A DNA stretch of 64,000 nt. Source: Lophium mytilinum (taxonomy: Eukaryota). Position numbers and translations under genes: made by a program. Location: positions 1,116,001 through 1,180,000 of the forward strand of contig MU004197.1 in assembly GCA_010093605.1 (NCBI GenBank), written 5' to 3'. The notes below the pieces were generated by a model. It searched no databases, was not told where the DNA came from, and saw nothing but the letters and a program-made list of their open reading frames with translations. Shown here in pieces: positions 7,046 through 64,000 of this stretch (positions are counted from its first letter, which is position 1; each line of letters begins with the position of its first letter).

Positions 7046-8076
7046 GGCTGGGTATGGTTGGCTTCAATAGTGAATGTAGCAGATAGGGGAGCAGAGGCCG
7101 AGCTCTGCGGTGGTGCTCGGAGGGGGCGCGCGGTGGAGGAGCGCGGACGTGGCCTGTTTATCACTGGAGGTGGGACGGCACTTGGGCCAGCGCGATCAAT
7201 AACGCCGTGGAGTTTAGGGGCAACAATGGGCCAGTGTACGCGGCTATCACGTGGCGGAGGGTCCGGCAGAGAGAACAGTATGGTGGAGAGTGAAGGAGAG
7301 GGTTCGAGGGTTCGAGGGTTCGAGGTATGCAGCTGTGCAGCTGCTTTTCACTTCTCTCTGGGCCTTGTAAGAAGTTGCCCCTTCTGGCATGGCATGCTTC
7401 CTCTGCCCGCCACCGATCACGGGCGACCTAAGGTTCAGACGCCAACGCTTTCCAGGGGGCCTCCCGTGGCGCGTCTCCACAGCGCCTGGTTCAATTGATT
7501 CTCTCCAATCCATCCTGAAACCTGCGACGCCCCTTCTGCCACCCCTCTGCTACCCCCAGCGCAGCCGTTTCACCTCGCAACCCGCCCGTCTCTGCTCTGG
7601 CGCGCGCTCTCTAACTTTAGAAGCGCATGTTGACCCTTCAGGCGCTCTCTATCAATCGGATGCTGCCGCACACATCCCTCCGGCTCTCACCGGCCACTAT
7701 GCCAGGGGCCACGCAATGGCAGCTTCATGCTTGCCTCTGTTGAGGAACGCCTGTGCTTTGGGCCAGGGGCCTTGGGAGGTGGCAAGTGCTAGTTGTGAAG
7801 AGCGAACGCGGAGTACATAGTAATCATGGGGAGTGCGGCACTGATGTCACTGTAATGGCACTATGACTGCTGTGCAGCAAGTATAGACATCAGAATCCGT
7901 GAAATCACAGGCTTGGCGCGTCTTCTGGCTTTTGGATTTTGTATCACATTGGACCCAGGCTGTATGAAAACCGTGATATGCTACCTGCCTTGTGGCAGGC
8001 CAACTTGGATGCTACCACCGTGAAGAACCCCAAAGCCGCAAAACAGATCCCGGAACCGTGCACCTTCTCATATCCC

Positions 8077-9213
8077 TTAATCCTTCGTCTTTTGAGTACC
8101 ACGGAGCAGACCAGTCCGGCGGGCAGCGATGAGACCAGCCTTTTGACCCTGGGCAGCGTACCGCGAGATTGTCGACGCTTTACCGATATGTTGATGGTTA
8201 CCACCTCCGTGAGGATGGTCGACGGGATTCATGGCCACACCACGAGTCTTGGGCCACGAGTTGCGCTTGACGGCGTACTTGTGCTTAGCACGCGAGGCCT
8301 TCAAGAGAGGCTTGTCCGTCCTTCCTCCACCAGCGACAATGCCAATCATGCCACGAACACTGCTCGACACGACCTTCTTGGCACCAGATGGAAGCTTGAC
8401 ACGGGTCTTGCCCTCGTCGGGGTTGTGGCCGATGACAGTGCAGCTGAAATCCTGTTAGTATATGCGATTACTGCGCTCGAGTGCGGGTGCTTTTACTAGT
8501 TGCCAGATGTGCGGCCCAGCGCGCCTCGGTCGCCAATCTTCTCCTCGACGTTCGACACAACGGTACCTTCAGGGACGCTTCCGAGAGGGAGAATGTTTCC
8601 AACGGTCAAGCTTGCGTTCTTATCCCACAGGTCAGCCCCAAGTTATCCGTGTGTTCATTGCGTGCGAAATACCTTGCCGGAGTAGATGAATTGGCCAGTG
8701 TACATGCCCTCGTTGGCGATCATCTGTGGATGTTAGTAGGGTTTCTATCGGGTCGCGGGGTTGTCGCAGCTTACGGTCTCGGTGTGGAGCTTGAACCTGT
8801 ACGGCTGTGAAGGAGTCAGTCCCATGGAAGTCAAGTATGTTGCGACAAACTCACATCTCTGAAGACCACCTTGCAGAGGGGAGCACCTCGTCCGGCTGCA
8901 CAGACTGTTAGTAGAGATCCTCGGACTGTAGACGGGTCTTCGTACGGTCATGGACGATGTCCTTCACGACACCGCGAATGTAGCCTGTCAATCATTTCAG
9001 CGAAGTCCAGCGCAAGTCGGATTGAAGCCGCAGCGGCTGCCAAACTGACCATGTCGTTCGGCGTAGTCAAGAGTTCGGAATTTCGCAGGCGCCTTGTTCA
9101 GGCGGGTGTGGGCCGTGAATATCGAGCCGCGACCCTTCCTCTGGTTACGGATAACTCGACCTGGAGGGCGTTAGCAGTGCAAGCATTACAGAGGGCGTGG
9201 AAGTCGTACCCAT
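8077..9213 (-). CDS. RPL2: 60S ribosomal protein uL2 (yeast L2 / human L8), 8 exons
   Basis: Spliced: [90 protein letters not shown]. Each of the seven introns has GT..AG ends. Confidence 0.98.
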
Positions 9214-9424
9214 CGTGACTTTGGCTTGACGTTGGATCAGTTGATGGATATTTCGAGGTGGAGGTTTTACGTCGCTTGCATCTGTGGGCCAAGGCCGCAC
9301 GGGCCTCGACTCGAAATGGCCCTAGCGCGATCCAAGCCTTCTCAACATCGGAGCGGCCCTCTGTCGTTGCCTCATCTCTCTCACCCCCCCGCACCATCAT
9401 ACCAGCCATCTTCAAGCACTTTGT

Positions 9425-10670
9425 AGAGCTCGCTCGGTGGCGGAACGCAACCACTGTGGATGACTAGTTGGGCGTGGGGCAGTCCGACTTGTATCGCATT
9501 TTCTGGCTCCTGTGCGTGTGGAGCTCTTTTTTCAATATTGCGTCGTTCATTGTCTTCTGGTAACGCTTTCAATCGTCGAAAGAGATGATTTACTTGGTGG
9601 CGGTCAGAGAGAGCGTGGAAGTCAGGGTTTGCGACCGCGTTTGAGGCCCCTCCTTCTTTTCCTTACCCCAGCACCGAGGGTTACGATCTCACGGCCTGGA
9701 AGGCTTACCTTGATCCGTGTCACAACTGATCGATTCTTATTTCGAGAAAGATCTGCTAGCTCTTGCACTCTTTTTCCTTTGTCAAGCATCTCCAAGTCGT
9801 CGTAATAACATACCACGGAGGAGTAATAGGCGTGATTCACCAAGAACATCACTTTCATTGGCGAAATCATTTTCAACTTCGAACAAGAAATCTACGTTGC
9901 GCGCGCGTGCTACTCAGCATCGCTTTCCCCGCCAAATTTCTAAAAAGAGAATGGGATCAACGGAACTTTTCAGCCCCTCGGGGCGTGTTGCCAAGCACAT
10001 TATGCGAACGCTTCGGAATGCAACACCAAGAATCCTCAAGATGAAGGGCGCGGTATTTTTTACTGAAGCGCTTCATGAATCTTACTATGGGCGGTCGTCT
10101 GCCTCAACGCTGTCTGGTGTAGCCCAGAGAGCTATCAGGCATGCTAAAAACTGTCGCTTTACATATTCTAATAACGTACTAGAGGACCTCACGCAGTACT
10201 AGGCAAGCTCACATGGCATACAGAGAGGTGTAGCTTAGACCAGGAAATCGCAAGGATCCGTGGACTCCCAATCTCTGTTCTAGGGAGCCTGGCTTTTGCG
10301 CGGTCTCCATTGCGCCCGGCCCGCGCAGGAAAACTCCATCACATCCACAATCCAGCCTTCCTCCACAACGAGAATAATCAACAAAATATACATCACTATT
10401 CTATCGCATGATTAAAGAAGCAGTATGCCTCTCTACTATTCCCAGCGCCCTTCTCGTTAGCGTTCTTTGATGCACTAGCCGGAGCAGAACCACACCTATC
10501 AGCACCCGATGACCCGCCCGTAGCTACCGATACACACTCTCGCTAGTGCTTGGAGTTGGGCGCTGAAGAAGTGTTGATGCGTTGCGTTGTGCGCGACGCT
10601 GGAGGATCGTATTTTAGCGGACGGCGGATGTAGAATGCTGCTTTTTTCTCGCGTATATAGCACAGCAATA
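9425..10670 (+). ncRNA. Candidate long structured non-coding RNA, family unidentified
   Basis: More than 15 hand-found helices of 6-13 bp, many nested, with G-U pairs that work only on the + strand. No convincing ORF. See findings. Confidence 0.45.
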
Positions 10671-10998
10671 CCTTCCAACTATTACAGGCGGTTACATAAA
10701 TGCAATATACAAGTCTCCTGTCCAACCTTCCTCTCAAGCTCAAGTCTAGAAGTCTCCAGAGGCGCCGTGAAGGAGAAGTGAATCCCCTTTGCATGCTAAA
10801 TAATCTAGCACAGGCTTACCCATATCTTATGAACGAATCATACGTCTCCAACGTCGAATGACGCCGTGCGCCGTGCCTGTAACTTTAGCTCCGTCTTTGA
10901 ACCTCGCTCCCCATTCCCGAACCTCCCTCTGCGCACGTCCACCTCGCGACTACTCCCACCCCCAAAGTACTTCGACAGGTGCGATCCCAACCTTCATC

Positions 10999-13218
10999 AT
11001 GAGTGACAGCGAACTCTCTTCTGTTTTATCTTCTCCGCCGTCGTCGGACCACGAGATGGCGCAGCCCACACCGCCCACCAAGTCCACCAAGAAATCATCC
11101 TCGAAGAAGAACGGCACCATGCTCAGCTTCGTGGAGTCCTCGCCACCAAGGAAGAAGCGCGCGCCCTCTCCAGCTCATGAAGAGGTCCTATCAGACAATC
11201 CTGACATTGCTGTAAGTCGTCGTCGCGTAAATCACGTCGTCGTCAACGCGATTTCACGTCCTTCCCTCAGATGCGCAGCGGGCTAATAGAATTATCCATA
11301 GTTCATTGTAATGTTCAGATCACGATTCAGCGACGTTTTCCCTACAAAACTACAGAACCTAGGACCACAGGATATTGAACGTGGCGTGGTCGACCCATTG
11401 CCCTCTCCCCAAGTCGAGAGTCTCCTTTGCGCCCTCCTCGGCCTCGTCCTCAATCGCAAGAAATATGTAGAGTCAGTAACCCAAACTCCTACTGCCCTAC
11501 CTAGCTGGATGAGGTCGCGTTACGGCTGGGAATCCGCTATGGCCGATCAAATTTGCTGACGTCTCTTGAATCTCACAGGAGAGGCCACTATGGTCGGGCA
11601 CTCGAAGAAGCCGTCCAGACCCAGAAGTCGCAATGGCCACGCGCTTGGAACGGTATAAACCCACTTCATGGAGGTCGTACATTCAACACCATGTCCCCAG
11701 AAGACCGAGTACGTCGCGCACACACTATTCATCGCTCCACAGACTTTGCTGACCTCTTCACCAGCTCACCCTACTCAAGACCCTTGTCCTCTGGAGCTTG
11801 CATGAATCAGAAGCAGTCAATGGTATGATCAAAGAATCATACAAGCAGGCTCGCCACGATGGCGACGAGAACCAGCCCCTCTCCGTCCAACCCTGGGGCC
11901 GCGATGGAGACAAGCGCCGATACTGGCTGGTCGAAGGTCGAGATGATACCGCTTTTAGAGTATACAGGGAAAGCAACCCAGTTCTAAAACACAATACCTG
12001 GTGGAGTGTGGCCGGCACTATCGATGAGCTGCGGGTTCTCTCGGACAAGCTCAAAGACGAGGATGGCACACAAGCTGCCAGGCGGTTGAGCGAGCGCATC
12101 ATCAATGCCATACCTCGTTTCGAAGCTACTGATGAGGTAAGTGCTACTTGTCTATCTAACGGCAACTGATGCTAATTATGCGGTAGAAGCGCAAGCGTCG
12201 CGAATACCGAATGAACCGAAAGGCCCAATTCAGCCGCCCCGAACCAGGTTTCTCACTCTACGAAGGCAGGACTCGTGGAAAGCGCATGAGGTATACCTTC
12301 TCTGACGAAGAGGATGAGGACACCTCCGATGCAGGTTCTGCTCGGCGATCCACGCGACAGTCCGGACGAGGAACACCGGCTGCGCCCTCTGGCCCTACTG
12401 TTACTGCCAGTGGCCGTCACGTTCGGTCTCGACTAGGAGGAGTATACGGAGAATCTCTGCTGAGCGGACAAACTACTACCGAGCGAGCATCACCAGCGAC
12501 TGGGGAGTATGAGCGATCTGATGCGTCGGAAGAACCTCACCCAGCACATGGTCGATCTACTCGTGCCGCAGCGAACGCCAAGCCAGCCAATGGAAGGTCG
12601 AAGATACGCAAGCATATTGAGGGATACAACTCTATTGACGAAATTGACGACGAAGATGATGCCTCATCATCTGGTGGGGAGTGGGATGGCGGAGACGAGG
12701 AAGACGAGGTCGATCGAATGGATGTTGACGAAGAGGACGATACCGCTTCCAGCGAGGAAGACATCGAAGATGATGCTGAGCCAAAGCCAAGGTCCAGCCT
12801 GATCGTCAAGTTGCGATACCGCAATGCATCCAAGTCTCTGGAAGTCAAGCCGGCTCAGCCTCTCCAGGACTCAATAGCCGTCCAGCCAAGGACAGCCAGC
12901 ACTCCTCCCAAAGTAGAGCCAATCCCTAACGGTGTCGCTGGTTCCATTCAAGTCACACGGCAGCCAGTCCAGGCTGCTCCACAAGCAGCACCTCCGGTTG
13001 TGGCTAATGGTGTCGCGGTTCATCATGCTCCCGACGCAACTCCGCCGCAGCCCGCACAACCGGCAACTGTTTTGCCACCATTCTCAGTTCCGGCAGACGC
13101 ACCTTTGAAGCAGTATCCTCAGGTCATGAATGTCCCCATTACTTCACACGAACCCTCCCAAGCGTTCCAGACCACTATTTTACCCCCAAATCCCACCACT
13201 GCCTATGGCTGGCAGTGA
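10999..13218 (+). CDS. WHIM1/WSD-domain chromatin protein (ISWI-associated, Ioc3-like), several introns
   Basis: FIVMFRSRFSDVFP..LGPQDIERGV..LLCALLGLVLNRKK, FNTMSPEDR|LTLLKTLVLWSL (WHIM1-like), PWGRDGDKRRYW (WHIM2/WSD-like), then acidic and Pro-rich tail. Confidence 0.8.
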
Positions 13219-53878: not shown

Positions 53879-54276
53879 ATCCCTTACATAGTCAGAAGTC
53901 TATAGAAGCTTTTTGACAATACATATATAGGACATGAATACCTGTACATACACCTCGTTTTCGGTGTTTGTAAACCCCCTTTTGTCTGATCTTCTGAATG
54001 GCCAGAACGGCTAGGAGCTTCGTCCGGTGCGCTGTTCTTAAATGGATCTGCGTTGTATGTAAGGCTATAACTTTACAGCCTCTCTATTCTAATATGCAGT
54101 CCTTCCAATGCCTTCAGCCGTATAAAAGGACTTTAAAGTATGTTTAAACTGTTAAACCTTGCTTTATAAGGGCTCCTTTACAAGTAAGTCTTCTAATTAG
54201 ATACCCTCCCACGTCTTTAATATACACTACAGGCTAATAATAAAGCTCTTTATAACTAACCCTTCTATCTAGAGAG

Positions 54277-54532
54277 TATTAAAGGTATAAGTTAGTATAA
54301 AAATAGATAGATAGATAGATAGAAAGTATATTACTTTAGTTCTATACTATATAGATAGTAACGGAGATATATATATATATAGTTTAATAGATTATAAAAT
54401 ACTTCTCTAATACTCTTCTAATATTTAATAATTCTTATATTACCTTTAAATACTTATAGCTTTATTCTATTTTATAGCTTATAAGCCTATTATAGATAAG
54501 AATATAATACTTATACTATTATAAAACTTATA
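54277..54532 (-). mobile_element. Solo LTR, heavily RIP-mutated
   Basis: TATTAAAGG..AAACTTATA is the RIP form of TGTCAAAGG..TTACA; exact TSD GAGAG (54272-76 / 54533-37). Confidence 0.85.
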
Positions 54533-54849
54533 GAGAGAAGATAAAAATTAAGTACTATTCTACTATTATACTACTTTATTCTATAGTACCTTATTCTATT
54601 ATATTTTATTCTATAGTGCCTTATTATTTAAGCTAGGCAGCTAACTATACTTTATATAAGTAGGTTTAAAGTTAGGTATAAGTATAGAGTTATATTAATA
54701 GTTACTAGAAGGCTATATTAAAAGATAGATAGGGTATATTATAAAGGTAAAGAATAAAAATATATTTACTTATATTTAGTAGTATATTTAGAGAAAGTAT
54801 TTAGAATTATTAAAAATAGTAAGTAAGTAAATTAAGTAGATTAAAGTTA

Positions 54850-56930
54850 GGGGAGGCATTCTAATAGACTCCCTTTTAGCTTGTAATATACCCTTTATAT
54901 AAACTAAGTACACCCCTTATATCTAATCTTCTAATTAGCCTAAAAGACTTAGATTACTACTCTAGCGCTTAAATTCTATATATATCTACTTTCTATTTCC
55001 TATATATATAGGCTATTAAAAGAAATACTAAAATTATAATTTAACCTATATTATTATATAGGCGTTTCTTTCTATCTTATTTAAACTATAAGGCTTATAT
55101 AAGAGTAAGAATTATATTTATTACTAGTATAGTAATATTATATTATAGCTAGAGGTTATCTTTAAAGATATTATTCTTAACGCTGCTAAAATAGTAGAGT
55201 TTTTACAAGTCTTAGTACTTAATAATAATAATAATAAATAGAGAAATAGAGTAAAAACTATCTAATATCTATATACCTAGGTAGGCTATTCCGCCCTAGG
55301 GCTATGCTAGCGCCTATACTTACTAGTAGAAGTAATAGAACTAATCTATTTAAATAATAGAATACCTCTATACCTAGCTATAGCGGAGGCCCTTACACTT
55401 ATATCTCCCTTAGATAAAATAACCCTAGATAGAGCTATAAGGCGTAAAAGTAAGAACTATAGTAGGTTTAGTTAGTAGATAATAAGAAGTAGTAGCTATA
55501 TAGTATTAGGTTACTATAATAACCTTCTATCTATAAAATATAGTTAGCCTATTATTATAAGAGCGTTATAGGTAATATAAAGGGGCCTCTTCTAGGCTAT
55601 AAGGCGTAGTATATAATAGTAGTAATAGCTAGCTCTAGGTCTCTTTAAACGCCTAGTAGACTTATAGTAGATAATAGCTAGCTACTTAGTTTATAGTAAG
55701 TATATAGAAGTAAATATATATACTTTCTATTTAGCTACTTATATATAGCTAAATAAGCTATAGCTTATATAGTACCTCTATATACTAAAACTAATAGTAA
55801 GTATATAGTAGCCTTTCTATCTATATATATAGCTAAATAGGCTCTACCTAGATAGTACCTCTATACTATAGATAGTAAGTATATAGCGTAGCCTTCTATA
55901 GCCTTACTATTAGCTAGCTAGCTAGCTAATATCTACTATATAGAAAGAAGAATTAATACCTTACTAATAATACTATCTATATAGCCTAAATAGATAGATA
56001 CGCGTATTAGTCTATTATACTAGAGGAAATATATAGTAACTTATAGTAATAGGCTTAAGAAGTAAATAGGTAGAAATAGGCGTATTATTACCTAGTAATA
56101 GAGGCTTAGGTAGGTAAGCTAAACTAAAGGTATCTATCTCTATATATATTATAATATATATATTTTTACCTATAAACCCGCCTTTAACGTAGAATACGCG
56201 TGCACCTATACTACGCGCGTGCCCTTACGCTAATTCTATACTAGTAAACCGCCCCGGATTCTAATTAATCTAACCTAAACCTAGAAGGATAACTATAACC
56301 TAATCTAGATTAATCTAGAAAGACGCATTATAATAGCTTATTCTATGGCAGGCCTAATAGACCTACTACGCGTCCCTAATAGCTAAATAATACTATAAAA
56401 GAGGGCGCTTAGCTTAATATACTATAGAAGATAAGGTTTTTATCTAATAGCTACTTAGTAGTAAACGGTTTTCTTCTTATAACTAGCCTAGATAGAACAG
56501 CTATATAGACCCTAATAGAAGCTATACTAGCTTAATAGAATTTAATAATAATAATATAGGCTATTATATTGCTATATATATATATATATATATATACCTA
56601 GAAGTATGCTAAAATAGTTTAAATCTTACCTTAGTACGGCCCCTCTATATTAAACCTAGCCCCCCTATATTGCCGCCGCCCCCATTGCCGCTTAATCTAG
56701 GATGAGCGCTAGTCTGACGCTATATCGCCTTCTTCTGTGGTGTAAAGGAAGTTGTAGGCCCGTAGCGGCTAGAGGTCTATAGTAAGTGTATTCTAGAGAG
56801 AGCATTTCTAATTTATAAGCAACTTAAGCAAGTAAATTAGAGGCCTAGGAGCGACCCTCCGGACTAATTAGATAATTAGACGTAAAGGTGGTGTGCATAG
56901 AGTAAAAAGGGGGTGTTAGAACCCCTCCCC
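54850..56930. mobile_element. Putative TIR-bounded DNA element, RIP-mutated, unclassified
   Basis: GGGGAGG..TTCTAA at left and TTAGAA..CCTCCCC at right, with further subterminal inverted similarity. Flanks are TAAAGTTA / TAAATTTA. The interior is repeated at 57820-60110 (inverted) and 60345-60860 (direct). Confidence 0.5.
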
Positions 56931-57442
56931 TAAATTTATGCTTTAAAATAACTATAAAGACTAGATAAAAAAGGTAAGATGAGAGTAAGTAAGTATACAG
57001 CTACTAAGAAGAGGTAGAAAAAGGAAAGGTATTTTAGTACTATAAAAGGAGCATATAGGTACTTATATCTTCTATATTATAAAGTAAAAGAACTCTAGTC
57101 TTTTAAGTAAAGACTTCTTTATATAATCTATAAGCTTAGGCTAAACTTTATTTTAGTAAGTAGGCTACTAACTATAGTAAATACTTATGCTGCTAATATA
57201 GAGCTAATTAAAATAGTATAATAGTATCTTATATATCTACTAAAAGTAGACTACTATTTCCACTTTAAAAGCTAGTAGATTTTAGATAAAAGGGTGTAGT
57301 TTAGTAAAGAGTCTAATTGAGTAAAATCTATTTAGTTATCTAGAATTAGTCCTAGAGTTTATTATAAACTATACTACTTGATAAGCTATATCTATGTTAA
57401 TAAGTAGAAGCTCTATAGATACTCTACGCTATAATATAGGTT

Positions 57443-57580
57443 ATAGATAGATAGATAGAAAGTATATTAAGATAAAAGAGATATAAATACAGGAAAATAG
57501 ATAGGTAGATAGATAGATAGGTAGATAGATAGATAGGTAGGTATATAGATAGATAGATAGGTAGGTAGATATATAGATAT

Positions 57581-57669
<89 letters not shown>
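57443..57669. repeat. (GATA)n microsatellite, interrupted
   Basis: Directly visible. Confidence 0.95.
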
Positions 57670-57819
57670 AGAAAAGTATTTTATATAGTATACTCTATAC
57701 TCTAAGTAAAGGGACTTAGTATATACTAAGAAAATCCCCCTCTAAGATTAGCTAGGGTAACTAGTTTACTTTTAGGTACTATAGTAAAGTGGATTAATGT
57801 AAGTATATAAATATTATAT

Positions 57820-60110
57820 TATTATTATTAAATTCTATTACGCTAGTGTAGCTCCCGTTAGGGTCTATATAGCTGTTCTATCTAGGCTAATTTATAAGGG
57901 GAAACTATTTACTACTAGGTAGCGTTTAGGTAAAAACCTTATCCTCTATTATATCTAGTATTAGGCGCCCTTCTTCTTTATTTTTACTATAGGGAATATA
58001 TAGTAGGTCTATAAAAACTACTATAGAATAAGCTTTTAAGATATATCTTTCTATATCTATCTAGAAAGGTTTATTATTATTCTTCTAGATACAGGCTAAG
58101 TAGAATCTAGATAGGAGGCTAGTATAGAGTTAGTATAAGGGCCCGCGTATAAGTAGTATATATATAGGGCCTTTATCTAAGGTAATAATAGTAAAGTAAA
58201 TAGTAGCTATATAGGCTATTAGAATAGAAAAGCTATATAGTATATAGATAGTATATAGTAAAGGTATATAGTAAGTATATAGTTTATAGATAGTCTATTA
58301 TTTTATAAGTAGGCTATAAGAGTAGAAGGGCTATAAGTAGCTATAGGGTTTATAGCTATAGTAGTAAGTATAAGCCCCTATAGTATAGCTAATAGCTATA
58401 AAAGGGCTAAGAGTATAGAGTATATAGTTTATAGTCTATAAGTAGAAAGTATATAGCTACTTATAGTAAGTATAAGCCTTTATAGTATAACTAACTAATA
58501 GTAGAAAGAAGCCGCGTATATATACTATTATAAAGTAGATAGGCTATTTAGAAATAGAAGAGCTATAGAGAATAGAAAGTATATACTATAGAGTATATAG
58601 TAGAGACCTAAAGCTAACTATCTATTAGTTCTAGTATACTATAGAGAGTATATAGCTATATATAGTAAGTATAAGCCTCTATAGTATAGCTAAGGGCTAT
58701 AGCTTAGCTAAGGGCTATACTGCGGCTATAGTTAGTAATAGCAGGGTTGTTAGTAATAGTAGGGTTATTAGTAATAGTAAGGCTATTAGTAATAGTAAGG
58801 CTATTAGTAATAGTAAGGCTATTAGTTATAGCTAGGCTATATATAATAGCAGGGCTATAGTATTAAGCAGGAGGGTTAAATCTACTTCTTTTCTATCTCT
58901 CTTACTATTAAGAGGTAGGGTAGCAGGTCTATTTTCTATAGAAACTACCTAGCTACTACTTTAGGTCTCTTTTTACTTTTATATATTTTCTTATATATCT
59001 AAGCTAAAATATATTTATATTATAGAGCTATAAAAGTTATATATAAAGTAGAGTTAGGCGTAGCCCTTCTACTAGAACTTTCTACTATAGATATAGCTTA
59101 TTAAATATATACCTCTATTCTATATATATTTAATTTACTTTATAAGCCTATCTTATAGCTAGCCTCTACCTTTTAATAGACTAATACGCGTATTTATTCT
59201 TTTAGGCTATATAGATAGTATTATTAGTAAGAGTTTAATTCTTTCTCTACTATAGGTCTACTAAGAGTTAAAGCCTAGTAAAGAGGTAAGGTTCTTAGAG
59301 CTATCTATTATTACTATTATATACTACGCCCTGCAGCTCTTTTAGTTCTAGTAGCTATTTTATATTACCTATATTATTCTTATAATAATAGGCTAACTAT
59401 ATCTTATAGATAGAGGTATTAGCCTAATAGTATACCTAGTAGCTAGCTATTATTCTAATAGTAACCTAATACTATACAGCTACTATACCTTCTATCTACT
59501 AACTAAACTTATTATTCTCTCTTAGCTACTACCTATATTTTTATCTATTCCAGTACTATGTTAATATATTCTCCCCCTACTTTTAAGTCTATTTCTAGCT
59601 CTTTAAGTTCTGGATTAATATTACTGCGGCTAATTTAATATTAATGTAATAAGAATTAACGTTGTCTAATATAGTTAATAGTACTAGAATTCTCCCTATC
59701 CTTACTATAAGTATAATCTTAGAATAGAATAAGTATACCAGTATTCTATTCTATTACTAGGCCTTCTACTTCTACTAGTAAATATAGGCGCTAGCTTATA
59801 GTCTAGGATAGTAAGCTTCTAGATAGTAATAGGTTAGGTAGTTCTTAAGAAAGTTCTACTATTTAAATTTCTATCTATAGATGTTAAGTTTTAGTAGTAG
59901 TAGGCCGCTAAGACCTATAAAAACTCTACTATTCTAGCGGTATTAAGGATAACATCTTTAAAGACGACCTCTAGTAGTAACGCAACGCCGCTGCACTAGT
60001 AATAAATATAATTCTTACTCTTGTGTAAGCCTTGCAGTTTAAATAAGATAGAAAGGAACCCCTATATAATAATACGGGTCGAATTATAATTTTAATGTTC
60101 CTTCCCTTTA
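57820..60110. mobile_element. Longer, inverted, diverged copy of the element at 54850-56930
   Basis: 57820-58170 matches the reverse complement of 56195-56560; 59160-59250 that of 55950-56030; 59900-60095 that of 55030-55210. Confidence 0.7.
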
Positions 60111-60881
60111 ATTATTATATAGTAGTTATTATTGTTTTTTTAAATACCTAAAGTTCTATCCCTATTTAAAGGCTTTTAAAGCCTACTATATAAAAGAATA
60201 TATTACTTAGGATTTTATAAAATTTATATATATTATCCTTAATACTACTATAATAGTAGAGCTCTTATAAGAGCCTTTATAAAGCTTTATATAATTAATA
60301 ATAAAATAAAAAGGTAGATTTAAAACTATCTAGTTTTCTATTATATAATTAGGTAGGCTATTCCAACCTATAGCTTTACTAGTACCTTTACTTACTAGTA
60401 GAAGTAATAGAACTACTTTATTATAATAGTAGAACACCTTTTTACTAATTTAACTAATATAGCACCTCTAGGTAGGTAGATAAATAAACGCTACTATAAA
60501 TAAATAAGTATACAAGCTAGGACCTAGAAGCTAATAGGCGTAAGAGGAAGAAAGATAATAGTCTAGTTAGTAGGTATAAGGGATAATAGCTACGTAGTAT
60601 TAAGTTATTAGATATAATATACTCTTTCTTTAACTTATAATTGGCCTATTATTGCATAAGCGTTATATATAATATAAAGAGGCTCTACTTTATAGAAAGA
60701 GGTAATTACTATAGGGCGTTATATATTATAGTAGTAGTAGTAGTTATAGTAGTAGTAGTCAGCTCTAGGCTTCTATAGATAGCTAGTAGACTTATAGTAA
60801 GTAGTAGTTTCCTAGTAGTAATAGTAAGTTTATAAAGGTATATATAAATATACTTTCTATTCTATTCCTTTTATCTGCTTC

Positions 60882-60882
<1 letters not shown>

Positions 60883-60976
<94 letters not shown>

Positions 60977-60986
60977 NNNNNNNNNN

Positions 60987-61081
<95 letters not shown>
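60883..61081. repeat. (TATC)n microsatellite spanning an assembly gap
   Basis: Directly visible; 10 Ns inside. Confidence 0.95.
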
Positions 61082-61491
61082 ATACTTACCCTAATAATAA
61101 TATAGATAGGGGATATATAATATATATAGATAGATAGATATTACTTAGATATTATATTACTACTTCTCCCTTTAGATTCTAATATATATGCTAGAAGGTA
61201 TAGGCTTAAGCTAGCTTATAGTACTTAAACCTACTATATTATAAATTTAGGGGAGGTAGGGTATAATAATAAAGACTCTACATACTCTTAAAGCCCTTAA
61301 ATTAAGAATTATTATATTTTCTTTTAGTTTTTTTCTATATTAGAACTAAGACCTCTTATATTAGTATATTTATAAATAAGCCTAATCCAAAGGTAGTATA
61401 GCTAAGAGAGCGCCTTCTCTTTTTATACCCACTCTTATTACTCTAGATCTACATCTAGAGTAGATTAGTAAAAGCACTTAATCCTTATATT

Positions 61492-61756
61492 TATAAGGTT
61501 TACAATAGTATAAGCGTTATATCCTTACGCATAATAGGCTTAAAAGCCTTTAAACGGGACAAAACCGTAAGTGTTTAAACGTGATACAACGAATATTAGA
61601 TAATGTTATAAGAATATTAGGGGAACGTTTTATAATGCATTAAATGCTGTATATATACTCCGTTGCTGTTAATGTAGAATAGAACTTAAGCAATACAATT
61701 CCTATCTATCTATCTATCTATCTATCTATCCTTACATCGACTCTATACCTTTAAGA
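61492..61756 (+). mobile_element. Solo LTR
   Basis: TATAAGG..CTCTATACCTTTAAGA; exact TSD ATATT (61487-91 / 61757-61). Confidence 0.9.
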
Positions 61757-61984
61757 ATATTCTGCCTTAGGAGTTAGAGCTTAAAGAAATTATTTCTATA
61801 GCCAGATCTAGGCGGCGCTAAACTTAGAGTGTCCACCTTTTGCAAAACACCTGCTCCTATGCCTTGTTTGAGAATTAAGGGCGTAGGAAAGCGGACCCGG
61901 CAAGTTTGCAATAAGCGCTGATAATGGTACAGAGTGTACTGCAAAAGTGTTATTACCTACACTTGTTTATAACTCCCATAGTAC

Positions 61985-62303
61985 TCTCAAAGGTATAGAG
62001 TCGATGTGAGAATAGATGGATAGATAGATAGATAGGAATTGTATTACTTGAGTTCTATTCTACATTAACAGCAACGGAGTTGTATATATACAGCATTTAA
62101 TGCATTGTAAAACGTTTCTCTAACGTTCTTGTAACGTTATCCAGCGTTCGTTGTATCACGTTCAAACGCTCACGGTTTTGTCCCGTTTGAAGTCTTTTGA
62201 GCCTATTATGCGTAAGGATATAACGCTTATGCTATTATAATCTTTACACACTCCCTTAAGCGTTATATGCTTATTTTGTATATTCTTTTTTGAATAGATA
62301 GAG

Positions 62304-62390
<87 letters not shown>

Positions 62391-64000
62391 ATTTCTTTTT
62401 CTTCTTCTTTGCACAGATAGATAGATAGATAGATAGATAAAATCTATATATCTATGTATTTGCGCAATAGAGTTATATCTATATATCTATGTATCTATTT
62501 AGTGTCTAATCTCATATAGTCTACTATTTTAGTAAAACTACTTCCCACTAATGGTTTAGTGAATATATTAGTTATTTACTCCTTAGTATTAAGGTAGGCT
62601 AGCTTTATTAATCCATTTTAAACATTTTCTCTTACAAAATGATATTATATATCTATATGTTTAGTTTTTGAGTGGTGTTCAGGATTATTAGCTAATTCTA
62701 TAGCTGATTAACTATCCGTAAATAGATAGAAGTCTTCTGTATTTTTAATATTAAGTTGTTTTAATATACTTTTTAAGTATATATATTCTTTTATAGTTTC
62801 TTTTAAAGCTATATATTTAGCTTCGCAACTAGATAGTGCTATAGATCTCTATAGTTTACTATTCCAGCTAATAGGTGTTTTTCTATAGGAAAAGTAATAT
62901 CCTGTAGTAGATTTTCTTCCTATTATATTACCCCCGTAATCTGCATTAGAATAGCCTAATATATATAGTGCAGGATTATTAGGAGAAAATTTAACGCTTA
63001 TTCCTTGCGTAGGCTTATATAATAAGTATTTCCATATCCTTTCTAAGGCTTTAAAGTGAATAGGACTAGGATTAGACATAAAACAAGCGCATAGATTTAC
63101 GCTATAGGCTATATCTAGTCTTATTTTTATAGATAGATAGATAAGACTTCCAACTTATTATTAGTATAGTTTTATATCCTCTTTTAATGCCTGTTTATTG
63201 TTTTTCTCTAGTTTTATACCTATTTCTCCTAGTATAAAGACGGGATTTAGTTTCTCTTTATTAAATCTTTTTAATAGACTTTTTGTATACTTTTTCTAGC
63301 TTAATAATAGGGTTCTTTCCTTTCTATTATATATTATTTCCATGCCTAGAAAATAGGATATAGGCCCTAAGTTTATTAATTCTAAGTCTTTACTTAGTTT
63401 TAATTATAGATTTTCTATATCTTTTATATTTAGGCTAAATACTAATAAATTATCTATGTAGTAGACTATTATTATAGTTTTATTTTTAAATACTGCCTGC
63501 TCTGCAATAGTACTTTTAAAACTGTACTTTTCTAAATATATAGCTAAATGGATATACTATTGTCTAGGGGACTATTTTAAGCCGTATAATGCTTTATTTA
63601 GCTTATAGACTTTATTATTTATATTAAAACCATGTAGTTATTCTATGTATAGTTCTTTATCTAAGTCTATATGCGTAAATGCGTTTTTAAAATCCTATTA
63701 TATTATTTCCTAGTTATAATAAGTAGCTAATACAAGTAATAGCCTATATACTTCTAGGCGGCAGGTATTAGTAAAGGTTTCTTTATAATCTACGCTGTAG
63801 ACTTAGCTAAAACCTTTTACTACCCATCTTGCCTTATATTTAGATATATTATTATCTATATCGGTTTTAATTTTATAAACCCAGCGTCCTTTTAACGCAT
63901 TTCTATTTACTAGTAAGTCTACTAACTTCCAGGTATTTTACTTATTAAGCTAGTCTATTTCTATTTACATAGCTTCTTTCTATTTCTTATTATATAGAGA
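61985..64000 (-). mobile_element. Ty1/Copia LTR retrotransposon, 3' part (RT, RNase H, PPT, 3' LTR at 61985-62248), RIP-inactivated
   Basis: Minus strand reads GRWVYKIK..YKARWVVKGF (Copia RT) and GYSNADYGG..RKSTTGY..ISWNSK..IALSSCEAKY..HSKTKHIDI (Copia RNase H), with many TAA/TAG stops. PPT CTTAAGGGAGTG abuts the LTR start TGTAAAG at 62248. Confidence 0.95.

What the first reader, a model, noticed from the sequence alone, without database searches (positions are those of the whole stretch)
9425..10670. ~1.25 kb of densely nested RNA helices divergent from RPL2: candidate unrecognised large structured ncRNA
Seen: the gap between RPL2 (-) and the WHIM gene (+) has no protein-like ORF, yet almost every segment has a complementary partner. 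Examples: AATCGTC 9571/GATGATT 9584 inside ACGCTTTC 9563/GAGAGCGT 9609; CCGAGGG 9674/CCCTCGG 9975 enclosing GATCTCA 9685/TGGGATC 9952 and CTCTTTTT 9768/AAAAAGAG 9942; GTGTTGC 9985/GCAACAC 10020; ATGAAG 10041/CTTCAT 10071 with CGGTA/TACTG inside; GGGCGG 10089/CTGCCT 10099; TGTCTGG 10111/TCAGGCA 10135; CCAGG 10240/CCTGG 10288; TTTTGCGCGG 10294/CCGCGCAGGA 10321; and a ~250-nt domain at 10400-10660. Most imperfect pairs are G-U on the + strand (A-C on the - strand), which suggests selection on a + strand RNA rather than DNA palindromes. I could not find the hallmarks of U1, U2, U3, U5, U14, snR30, SRP, RNase P/MRP or a UAACCCUAA telomerase template. Inference: a long structured RNA transcribed from the bidirectional RPL2 promoter, possibly co-regulated with ribosome biogenesis.
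Basis: partly seen in the sequence, partly recalled or inferred. Interest (0 to 1): 0.8.

Follow-up and report, generated by a model that had tools for sequence, protein, structure and literature searches.

The report
Unstructured intergenic transcript beside RPL2
The reported RNA helices are no more than chance pairing, but the spacer does produce an unspliced RNA of about 1.24 kb that looks like an ordinary, poorly conserved fungal long non-coding transcript.

Summary
They are what chance gives. Inverted k-mer counts equal dinucleotide shuffles. The MFE z-score of 9425-10670 is +0.32 on the + strand and -0.01 on the - strand. The 150-nt windows average z about 0. Four sub-domains give z from -1.84 to +1.38. 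Rfam finds nothing, even at E<=10.

The region is transcribed. In transcriptome run X1, where RPL2 and the WHIM-like gene are spliced and their introns have zero cover, one 1236-nt contig lies colinear on 9483-10718 with no mismatch and no cover on either flank.

The RNA has no convincing coding capacity and no telomerase-RNA, snoRNA or tRNA marks. It has no detectable similarity to the syntenic RPL2-WHIM spacers of five other lineages.

Best reading: a lineage-specific long intergenic ncRNA, probably + strand and divergent from the RPL2 promoter. It is not a large structured RNA. The strand, the ends and any function remain untested. Interest is low.

The parts
9483..10718 (.). Minimum extent of an unspliced transcript (1236 nt). 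The strand is not determined; + is favoured at about 60% by inference.
   Evidence: table 8: X1 record 3 is 1236 nt long, depth 78.4, and lies on 9483-10718 with 0 other letters and 0 gaps. The bin depths show exactly zero other cover in 9359-9482 and 10719-10868.
9243..9482 (.). Uncovered gap between the RPL2 5' UTR and the transcript. Presumed shared (bidirectional) promoter region.
   Evidence: the X2 RPL2 contig reaches 9242. X1 has no cover in 9208-9358 and only the contig's own 27 nt in bin 9359-9509. The promoter role is inferred.
9355..9420 (+). Pyrimidine-rich (CT) tract on the + strand, upstream of the transcript.
   Evidence: 71% C+T. The tract over the WHIM-like gene's mRNA start (10895-10965) has 72%, and 9243-9354 has 50%. 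That CT tracts mark transcription starts in filamentous fungi is recalled knowledge.
9714..10202 (+). Stop-to-stop open frame of 162 codons. Its only sizeable ATG ORF is 9951-10202 (83 aa).
   Evidence: No Pfam family. 0 hits among 1.84 billion representatives. Codon score -0.05/-0.006 against coding 0.254+-0.129. Atlas recognition 1585, below 2300. pLDDT 50.3.
9586..9950 (+). ATG-free stretch on the + strand ahead of the 83-aa ORF.
   Evidence: 1 ATG in 9483-9950 on + against 4.75+-1.82 in 2000 shuffles (P=0.032), and 8 on the - strand. 21 of the window's 1875 ATG gaps are at least this long.
10654..10709 (+). TATATA (10654-10659) and AATATA (10704-10709): a polyadenylation-signal-like pair just before the contig end at 10718.
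   Evidence: motif scan; sequence. The role is inferred from recalled yeast/fungal 3'-end signal layout. TATATA reads the same on both strands.
8000..9242 (-). RPL2 (uL2) gene. ATG at 9213-9211; the first coding exon holds only ATGG. Seven introns of 49-65 nt.
   Evidence: table 5 (joints 8443>8497, 8618>8673, 8723>8775, 8804>8856, 8895>8946, 8983>9049, 9158>9208). Ribosomal_L2_C, E=8.5e-18. (sequence).
10912..12500 (+). WHIM/WSD-like gene. mRNA contig starts at 10912, ATG at 11000, four GT..AG introns in the part examined.
   Evidence: X1 record 4 is 2438 nt, depth 249.3, with joints 11211>11302, 11471>11579, 11708>11765 and 12134>12185. Pfam WSD scores only 16.0 bits, below its cut-off of 25.4.

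Best explanation
The spacer between RPL2 and the WHIM-like gene yields an unspliced RNA polymerase II transcript of at least 1.24 kb (9483-10718). It has no convincing coding capacity, no sequence conservation and no more secondary structure than shuffled sequence. I read it as a lineage-specific long intergenic non-coding RNA.

Most likely course (inferred): transcription starts on the + strand, divergently from the very active RPL2 promoter and downstream of the CT-rich tract at 9355-9420. It runs unspliced across the spacer. It ends at the UAUAUA/AAUAUA signals at 10654-10709, about 190 nt before the WHIM-like gene's start at 10912. Any effect would come from the act of transcription next to the WHIM-like promoter (interference or insulation), not from a folded RNA.

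Shown: the transcript exists, is colinear and unspliced, and is separated from both neighbours by uncovered DNA.

Inferred: strand, promoter, 3' signal and function.

For: Transcript:
- X1 is a transcriptome. RPL2 and the WHIM-like gene appear spliced, and the bin depths match exon lengths exactly, so intron cover is zero and genomic DNA carry-over is not detectable.
- One 1236-nt contig (depth 78.4, against 249.3 for the WHIM-like mRNA and about 25,000 for RPL2) lies on 9483-10718 with 0 mismatches and 0 gaps.
- No joint links it to either neighbour.

No known RNA family: Rfam gives 0 hits at gathering score over 64 kb and 0 at E<=10 over 9200-11000. There are 0 tRNAs. One weak C/D-like candidate has a mismatched C box and is 148 nt long.

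No structure: z is about 0 on both strands and inverted k-mers are at shuffle level.

Non-coding:
- The longest ATG ORFs are 83 and 82 aa.
- No Pfam family above its cut-off; one weak sub-cut-off match (Herpes_UL24, 15.8 bits, cut-off 27) on an ORF lying partly outside the contig.
- 0 homologues of the 162-aa frame in 1.84 billion representatives.
- The best-of-six codon score over the transcript has mean -0.066 and maximum 0.077, against 0.254+-0.129 for coding windows.
- No tblastx match with E below 0.1 between spacers of different lineages.

Not conserved:
- 9 of 27 related loci keep the RPL2(-)/WHIM(+) arrangement. They represent 5 lineages, with spacers of 1.24-1.65 kb.
- blastn with word 7 finds no similarity to the window's spacer.
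- nhmmer gives 0 hits at E<=10 in all 27 loci, while a 301-nt WHIM exon-1 control gave 20 rows before the listing was cut.

+ strand hints: the CT tract upstream; 0 CTRAC branch-point motifs on + against 3 on -; a consensus GTATGT 5' splice site on - that is not used; 3'-signal-like motifs before 10718.

Context: passages of PMC6094484 report hundreds of lincRNAs in a filamentous fungus. They are mostly not conserved, and many are tied to bidirectional promoters.
Against: - The evidence is one contig from one run of one study. Contigs cannot give the strand, the true ends or the level.
- X1 may be the same strain as the assembly.
- A - strand reading is not excluded. An A-rich stretch lies before 9483 on the - strand, and TATATA is palindromic.
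- The + strand has only 1 ATG in the 468 nt ahead of the 83-aa ORF (P=0.032). That ATG has A at -3 and G at +4. This is what a real 5' UTR of a small-protein mRNA would look like.
- The 162-codon open frame is the longest among the 10 spacers examined; the others reach 105-143 codons.
- Extra X1 contigs overlap 9963-10264, and one has a 255-nt unlike part ending at 10121. This is unexplained.
- The available relatives are distant: the WHIM-like gene is 64-69% identical at nucleotide level over the long matches. Lack of similarity therefore does not exclude conservation among close relatives.
Confidence: 0.6

Rival explanations
1. The transcript is an mRNA for a lineage-specific small protein. 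It would be on the + strand, with a 468-nt 5' UTR, an 83-aa ORF at 9951-10202 and a 3' UTR of about 516 nt.
For: - 1 ATG in 9483-9950 on +, against 4.75+-1.82 in shuffles (P=0.032) and 8 on -.
- The ORF's ATG has A at -3 and G at +4.
- It sits in a 162-codon stop-free frame.
- The ends look mRNA-like.
Against: - No Pfam family.
- 0 hits in 1.84 billion representatives.
- Codon score -0.006 against 0.254+-0.129. However, real WHIM exon 1 scores -0.136, so this test is weak.
- Atlas recognition is 1585, below the 2300 that 91 in 100 known proteins reach.
- The single-sequence model has pLDDT 50.3, which is uninformative.
- Relatives' spacers also hold junk-like open frames of 105-143 codons.
- 21 of the window's 1875 ATG gaps are as long as this one.
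Confidence: 0.15
2. It is not an independent RNA. It would be an upstream-start or read-through isoform of a neighbouring gene whose linking part was lost in assembly, or an assembly by-product.
For: - De Bruijn contigs break at low cover.
- The gaps to the neighbours are short: 240 nt to RPL2 and 193 nt to the WHIM-like mRNA.
- Extra contigs and a loose end at 10121 show that the graph is not simple here.
Against: - No joint or contig bridges either gap (tables 5 and 8).
- The gap 10719-10911 has no GT..AG ends.
- Cover in both gaps is exactly zero, while the contig's depth is 78.
- Introns of both neighbours are uncovered, so this is not genomic DNA.
Confidence: 0.12
3. One reading: a large ncRNA whose function depends on a conserved, densely nested secondary structure.
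For: - An RNA of the right size exists.
- All the named pairs exist.
- 9674-9981 folds with z -1.84.
Against: - z is about 0 for the whole region and for 150-nt windows on both strands.
- The other three sub-domains give z -0.54, +0.37 and +1.38.
- Inverted k-mers are at shuffle level.
- Rfam finds nothing.
- No similarity and so no alignable covariation in 5 syntenic lineages.
Confidence: 0.05
4. It is the telomerase RNA. Telomerase RNAs of filamentous ascomycetes are Pol II transcripts longer than 1 kb that evolve fast.
For: - The size and the lack of similarity between genera fit.
- Synteny around telomerase RNA genes is reported for nine of ten fungal genomes examined (PMC3603654, passages).
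- A 7-mer TAACCCT lies on the - strand at 9683-9677.
Against: - There is no CCCTAA in 9200-11000.
- No permutation of the TTAGGG template of 8 nt or more occurs on either strand of any of the 10 syntenic spacers.
- One 7-mer is about what chance gives.
- No AUAAGU or AUACGU 5' splice site, no GCUAACU branch point and no Sm site lies inside the transcript. The only ATACGT is at 10840, outside it (motifs from PMC3603654).
- Rfam gives 0 hits at E<=10.
- The organism's telomere repeat is not known to me.
Confidence: 0.02

Closest known systems
Long intergenic ncRNAs of filamentous fungi and yeast SUT/CUT-type divergent transcripts from bidirectional promoters (PMC6094484, passages read; Xu 2009 and Neil 2009 seen only in its reference list)
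   Same: It is intergenic and longer than 200 nt, mRNA-like and unspliced, and it lacks coding capacity. It is not conserved between genera. It sits head-to-head with an active gene, 240 nt from that gene's 5' UTR.
   Different: The strand, and so the divergent origin, is not shown here. No expression correlation with RPL2 was measured. Its assembled k-mer depth is about a third of the neighbouring mRNA's, so it does not look like a rapidly degraded cryptic transcript; depth from contigs is a poor measure, though.
Promoter-upstream interfering lncRNAs such as the IME1-promoter lncRNA of budding yeast (mentioned in PMC6094484, introduction)
   Same: If it is on the + strand, it is transcribed toward the promoter of the downstream WHIM-like gene and ends about 190 nt before that gene's start.
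   Different: The contig stops before the promoter rather than crossing it. No regulatory effect was tested.
Telomerase RNA of Aspergilli and other filamentous ascomycetes (PMC3603654, passages)
   Same: The size class is above 1 kb. It lies in an intergenic position inside a syntenic block. It has no similarity between genera.
   Different: It has no template, no Sm site, no 5' splice site and no branch point at the 3' end, and no Rfam hit.

Membership tests
Long intergenic ncRNA (operational class) | A transcript longer than 200 nt that lies between genes | tested here: met
   a 1236-nt X1 contig on 9483-10718. Both flanks are uncovered and both neighbour genes appear spliced.
Long intergenic ncRNA (operational class) | No protein-coding capacity | tested here: inconclusive
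   Against coding: no homologues, non-coding codon score, low Atlas recognition. For coding: the 83-aa ORF has a good start context and an ATG-poor leader (P=0.032).
Divergent (bidirectional-promoter) transcript | Transcribed on the strand opposite the partner gene, from the same nucleosome-free promoter region | not testable with these tools
   Contigs carry no strand. Only indirect + strand hints are available.
Structured ncRNA (any Rfam family) | Match to a covariance model | tested here: not met
   0 matches at gathering score in 64 kb. 0 matches at E<=10 in 9200-11000.
Structured ncRNA (novel) | Folding energy below that of dinucleotide shuffles | tested here: not met
   z +0.32 and -0.01 for the whole region. 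Mean z -0.03 and +0.05 over 22 windows. Sub-domains range from -1.84 to +1.38.
Structured ncRNA (novel) | Conservation or covariation in orthologous loci | tested here: not met
   Nine syntenic loci from 5 lineages show no blastn, tblastx or nhmmer similarity to the spacer. Close relatives were not available.
Telomerase RNA (filamentous ascomycete type) | A template of at least about 1.3 telomere repeats | tested here: not met
   No TTAGGG-template permutation of 8 nt or more in the window's spacer or in 9 relatives' spacers. No CCCTAA in 9200-11000. The test assumes a TTAGGG telomere.
Telomerase RNA (filamentous ascomycete type) | Sm site followed by a 5' splice site (AUAAGU or AUACGU) and a branch point (GCUAACU) at the 3' end | tested here: not met
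   none inside 9483-10718. The motifs come from PMC3603654.
Box C/D snoRNA or snoRNA host transcript | C box RUGAUGA and D box CUGA with a terminal stem, 70-120 nt apart | tested here: not met
   the only candidate has a mismatched C box (GAGATGA) and a 148-nt span. Rfam finds none. H/ACA boxes were not scanned separately.

The most novel reading that the evidence does not exclude
The RPL2-WHIM spacer stays 1.2-1.8 kb long in six lineages although its sequence is entirely replaced. The boldest reading not excluded is a position-conserved, fast-evolving lncRNA locus. It would be kept for the act of transcription from the ribosomal-protein promoter toward the chromatin-remodeller (WHIM-like) gene, coupling that gene's expression to ribosome-biogenesis activity.
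Probability: 0.07. Interest if true: 0.5.

Novelty: new member of a known kind. Interest (0 to 1): 0.2.

Why it matters
It matters little beyond annotation. The window gains one unannotated transcript of about 1.24 kb.

The case shows that hand-picked complementary segments in 1.2 kb of DNA are expected by chance: about 50 perfect 7-mer pairs occur in shuffled sequence. They should not be read as RNA structure without a shuffle control.

If the transcript proved to be position-conserved or regulatory for the WHIM-like gene, it would be a modest example of promoter-coupled lncRNA regulation in a filamentous fungus.

Tried and rejected
- Whole genome: none is held for this window. A telomere repeat, a true telomerase RNA locus and paralogues could not be sought.
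- Sequencing runs: no RNA holder is listed on record. X1's RNA nature was deduced from spliced contigs.
- X2, X4 and X5 gave no cover of 9243-10911 at 80% likeness. Their near-relative RPL2 contigs have depth of only 5-177, so this says nothing about conservation or expression.
- The 30-letter loose-end consensus at 10121 has 0 matches in the window at up to 3 mismatches. The origin of that contig is unknown.
- Self-similarity of the spacer to the rest of the window: only chance-level matches of 13-21 nt. It is not a repeat.
- L001 against L004 spacers: 97.3% identical. The 150-nt windows run at 0.947-0.993, like the flanks. The pair is too close to show constraint.
- TAACCCTAA with up to 1 mismatch: 11 matches in the window against 14.6 expected, none perfect and none in the spacer.
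- Earlier findings of this scan: nothing by place or by sequence.
- The single-sequence structure of the 83-aa ORF has pLDDT 50.3, which is uninformative. No fold search was made.
- The - strand ORFs 9622-9870 and 10543-10794 were checked against Pfam only.
- Literature: two searches. None was aimed at an RPL2-adjacent lncRNA, so I make no claim that one is or is not in print.

Full report
**Setting**

The window looks like DNA of a filamentous ascomycete. This is an inference. It rests on GT..AG introns of 49-107 nt, a CTAAC branch point in RPL2 intron 1, and an AT-rich block at 54-64 kb that is poor in ATG.

RPL2/uL2 lies on the - strand. Its ATG is at 9213-9211, and the first coding exon holds only ATGG. 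It has seven introns of 49-65 nt, and its 5' UTR reaches at least 9242. Pfam gives Ribosomal_L2_C at E=8.5e-18.

On its fourth exon, Pfam gives only a sub-threshold WSD match: 16.0 bits against a cut-off of 25.4. The ATG-to-ATG spacer is 1786 nt.

69 of their 78 positions are Watson-Crick and 9 are G-U.

Such pairs are expected by chance. Against 200 dinucleotide shuffles of 9425-10670, perfect inverted k-mers number as follows:
- k=6: 191 observed against 196.6+-18.5.
- k=7: 54 observed against 50.0+-9.3.
- k=8: 11 observed against 12.5+-4.8.

Between 71 and 131 of the 200 shuffles reach the observed counts. Limiting the distance to 400 or 60 nt changes nothing.

The folding energy agrees:
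- Whole region, 20 shuffles each: -378.4 kcal/mol on + (the tool gave -380.5) against -380.8+-7.6, so z is +0.32. On the - strand, -392.4 against -392.3+-8.6, so z is -0.01.
- Among 35 overlapping 150-nt windows, the 22 lying inside the finding average z -0.03 (+) and +0.05 (-). No window is beyond -2.4.
The -1.84 belongs to a stretch whose ends were chosen on a complementary pair, and 5 of 100 shuffles do as well.

The reported G-U bias toward the + strand reflects how the pairs were chosen. The - strand folds lower than the + strand, and each strand equals its own shuffles.

Rfam gives no match at gathering score in the whole window and none at E<=10 in 9200-11000.

**What is there?**

The sequencing-run search listed no holder on record as RNA. 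Run X1 (organism A) nevertheless turned out to be a transcriptome:
- Its contigs for RPL2 and the WHIM-like gene skip every intron.
- The bin depths equal contig depth times the exonic fraction, so intron cover is zero.

In that run, a single contig of 1236 nt (depth 78.4) lies colinear on 9483-10718 with no mismatch and no gap. There is zero cover in 9243-9482 and in 10719-10911, and no joint links it to either neighbour.

The gap therefore produces a discrete, unspliced RNA of at least 1.24 kb. It overlaps 1188 of the finding's 1246 nt. Contigs cannot give the strand, the true ends or a reliable level.

Extra X1 contigs raise the depth over 9963-10264. One of them carries 255 unlike letters up to 10121. 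Its 30-letter consensus is not in the window. This remains unexplained.

**Coding or not?**

The longest ATG ORFs are 83 aa (+, 9951-10202) and 82 aa (-, 9622-9870). The + ORF sits in a 162-codon stop-free frame.

Evidence against coding:
- The frame has no Pfam family.
- It has no homologue among 1.84 billion representative proteins.
- Its codon-usage score is -0.05, against 0.254+-0.129 for real coding windows.
- Atlas recognition is 1585, below the 2300 mark.
- Syntenic spacers of relatives hold similar junk-like open frames of 105-143 codons.
- No translated similarity links the spacers.

Evidence that keeps a small-protein mRNA alive as a rival:
- The + strand has only one ATG in the 468 nt ahead of the ORF. 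Shuffles give 4.75+-1.82 (P=0.032), and the - strand has 8.
- The ORF's ATG has A at -3 and G at +4.

**Conservation**

A metagenome scan with the WHIM-like exon 4 returned 27 loci.
- Nine keep RPL2(-)/WHIM(+) head to head: L001, L002, L003, L004, L007, L008, L012, L013 and L014. They make five lineages.
- Five loci with at least 5 kb of upstream flank do not keep it: L009, L011, L016, L020 and L021.
- The syntenic spacers are 1.24-1.65 kb long.

They share nothing with the window's spacer or with each other across lineages. blastn with word 7 and tblastx find no similarity. nhmmer gives 0 hits at E<=10 in all 27 loci, while a 301-nt exon-1 control gave 20 rows before the listing was cut.

These relatives are distant: the WHIM-like gene is 64-69% identical at nucleotide level over the long matches. 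Constraint among close relatives is therefore untested. The one close pair, L001 and L004, is 97.3% identical in the spacer, like its flanks.

**Known RNA kinds considered**

Telomerase RNA:
- No CCCTAA occurs in the spacer.
- No template permutation of 8 nt or more occurs in any of the 10 spacers.
- The Aspergillus-type 3' end (Sm site, AUAAGU or AUACGU, GCUAACU; PMC3603654 passages) is absent from the transcript.

A snoRNA host is not supported. No tRNA is present.

**Mechanism**

I read this as a lineage-specific long intergenic ncRNA (confidence 0.6). The + strand is favoured at about 60%, for these reasons:
- A 71% C+T tract at 9355-9420 precedes the transcript. A 72% tract covers the WHIM-like start.
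- The + strand has no CTRAC branch motif, while the - strand has three, plus an unused consensus GTATGT.
- TATATA at 10654 and AATATA at 10704 precede the contig end.

On this reading the RNA is the divergent product of the RPL2 promoter and stops about 190 nt before the WHIM-like start. Any function would lie in transcription itself.

This matches what is described for fungal lincRNAs: they are numerous, poorly conserved and often linked to bidirectional promoters (PMC6094484, passages).

**Verdict**

The structure claim is not supported. The transcript is real but ordinary. It is a new member of a known kind, and its interest is low.

Noticed in passing
window 54000-64000: An AT-rich block (GC 25-35%, against 48-54% just before it) with ATG-free runs of up to 1761 nt (+) and 2901 nt (-). 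A 10-N gap lies at 60977-60986. The pattern looks like a RIP-degraded repeat region.
   Followed up: partly
window 9963-10264: Extra X1 contigs raise the depth from 78 to 121-228. One contig matches only from 10121 onward and carries 255 unlike letters before that point. Its 30-letter consensus is absent from the window. It could be a shared segment, an alternative exon or a chimera.
   Followed up: partly
window 8892-9049 (RPL2, - strand): Minor alternative joints 8892>8946 and 8982>9049 appear in X1 at depth 37-46, beside the main joints 8895>8946 at about 25,000 and 8983>9049 at 209. Each has 1-3 extra letters between its sides.
   Followed up: no
window 9159-9213 (RPL2, - strand): The first coding exon of RPL2 contributes only ATGG before a 49-nt intron with a GCTAAC branch point.
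   Followed up: partly
runs X4 and X5 on window 8000-9161: Each run holds two classes of RPL2 contigs, one 95-99% alike and one under 90% alike. These runs therefore mix at least two related organisms.
   Followed up: no
L002:7853-7869 and L012:8155-8171 (spacer coordinates 46-62 and 270-286): A 17-nt perfect match in inverted orientation is the only cross-lineage similarity among all the RPL2-WHIM spacers (E=0.005). It could be a shared promoter element or chance.
   Followed up: no
L001-L027: The head-to-head RPL2/WHIM arrangement is kept in 9 of 27 related loci. It is absent in 5 loci that have at least 5 kb of upstream flank.
   Followed up: partly
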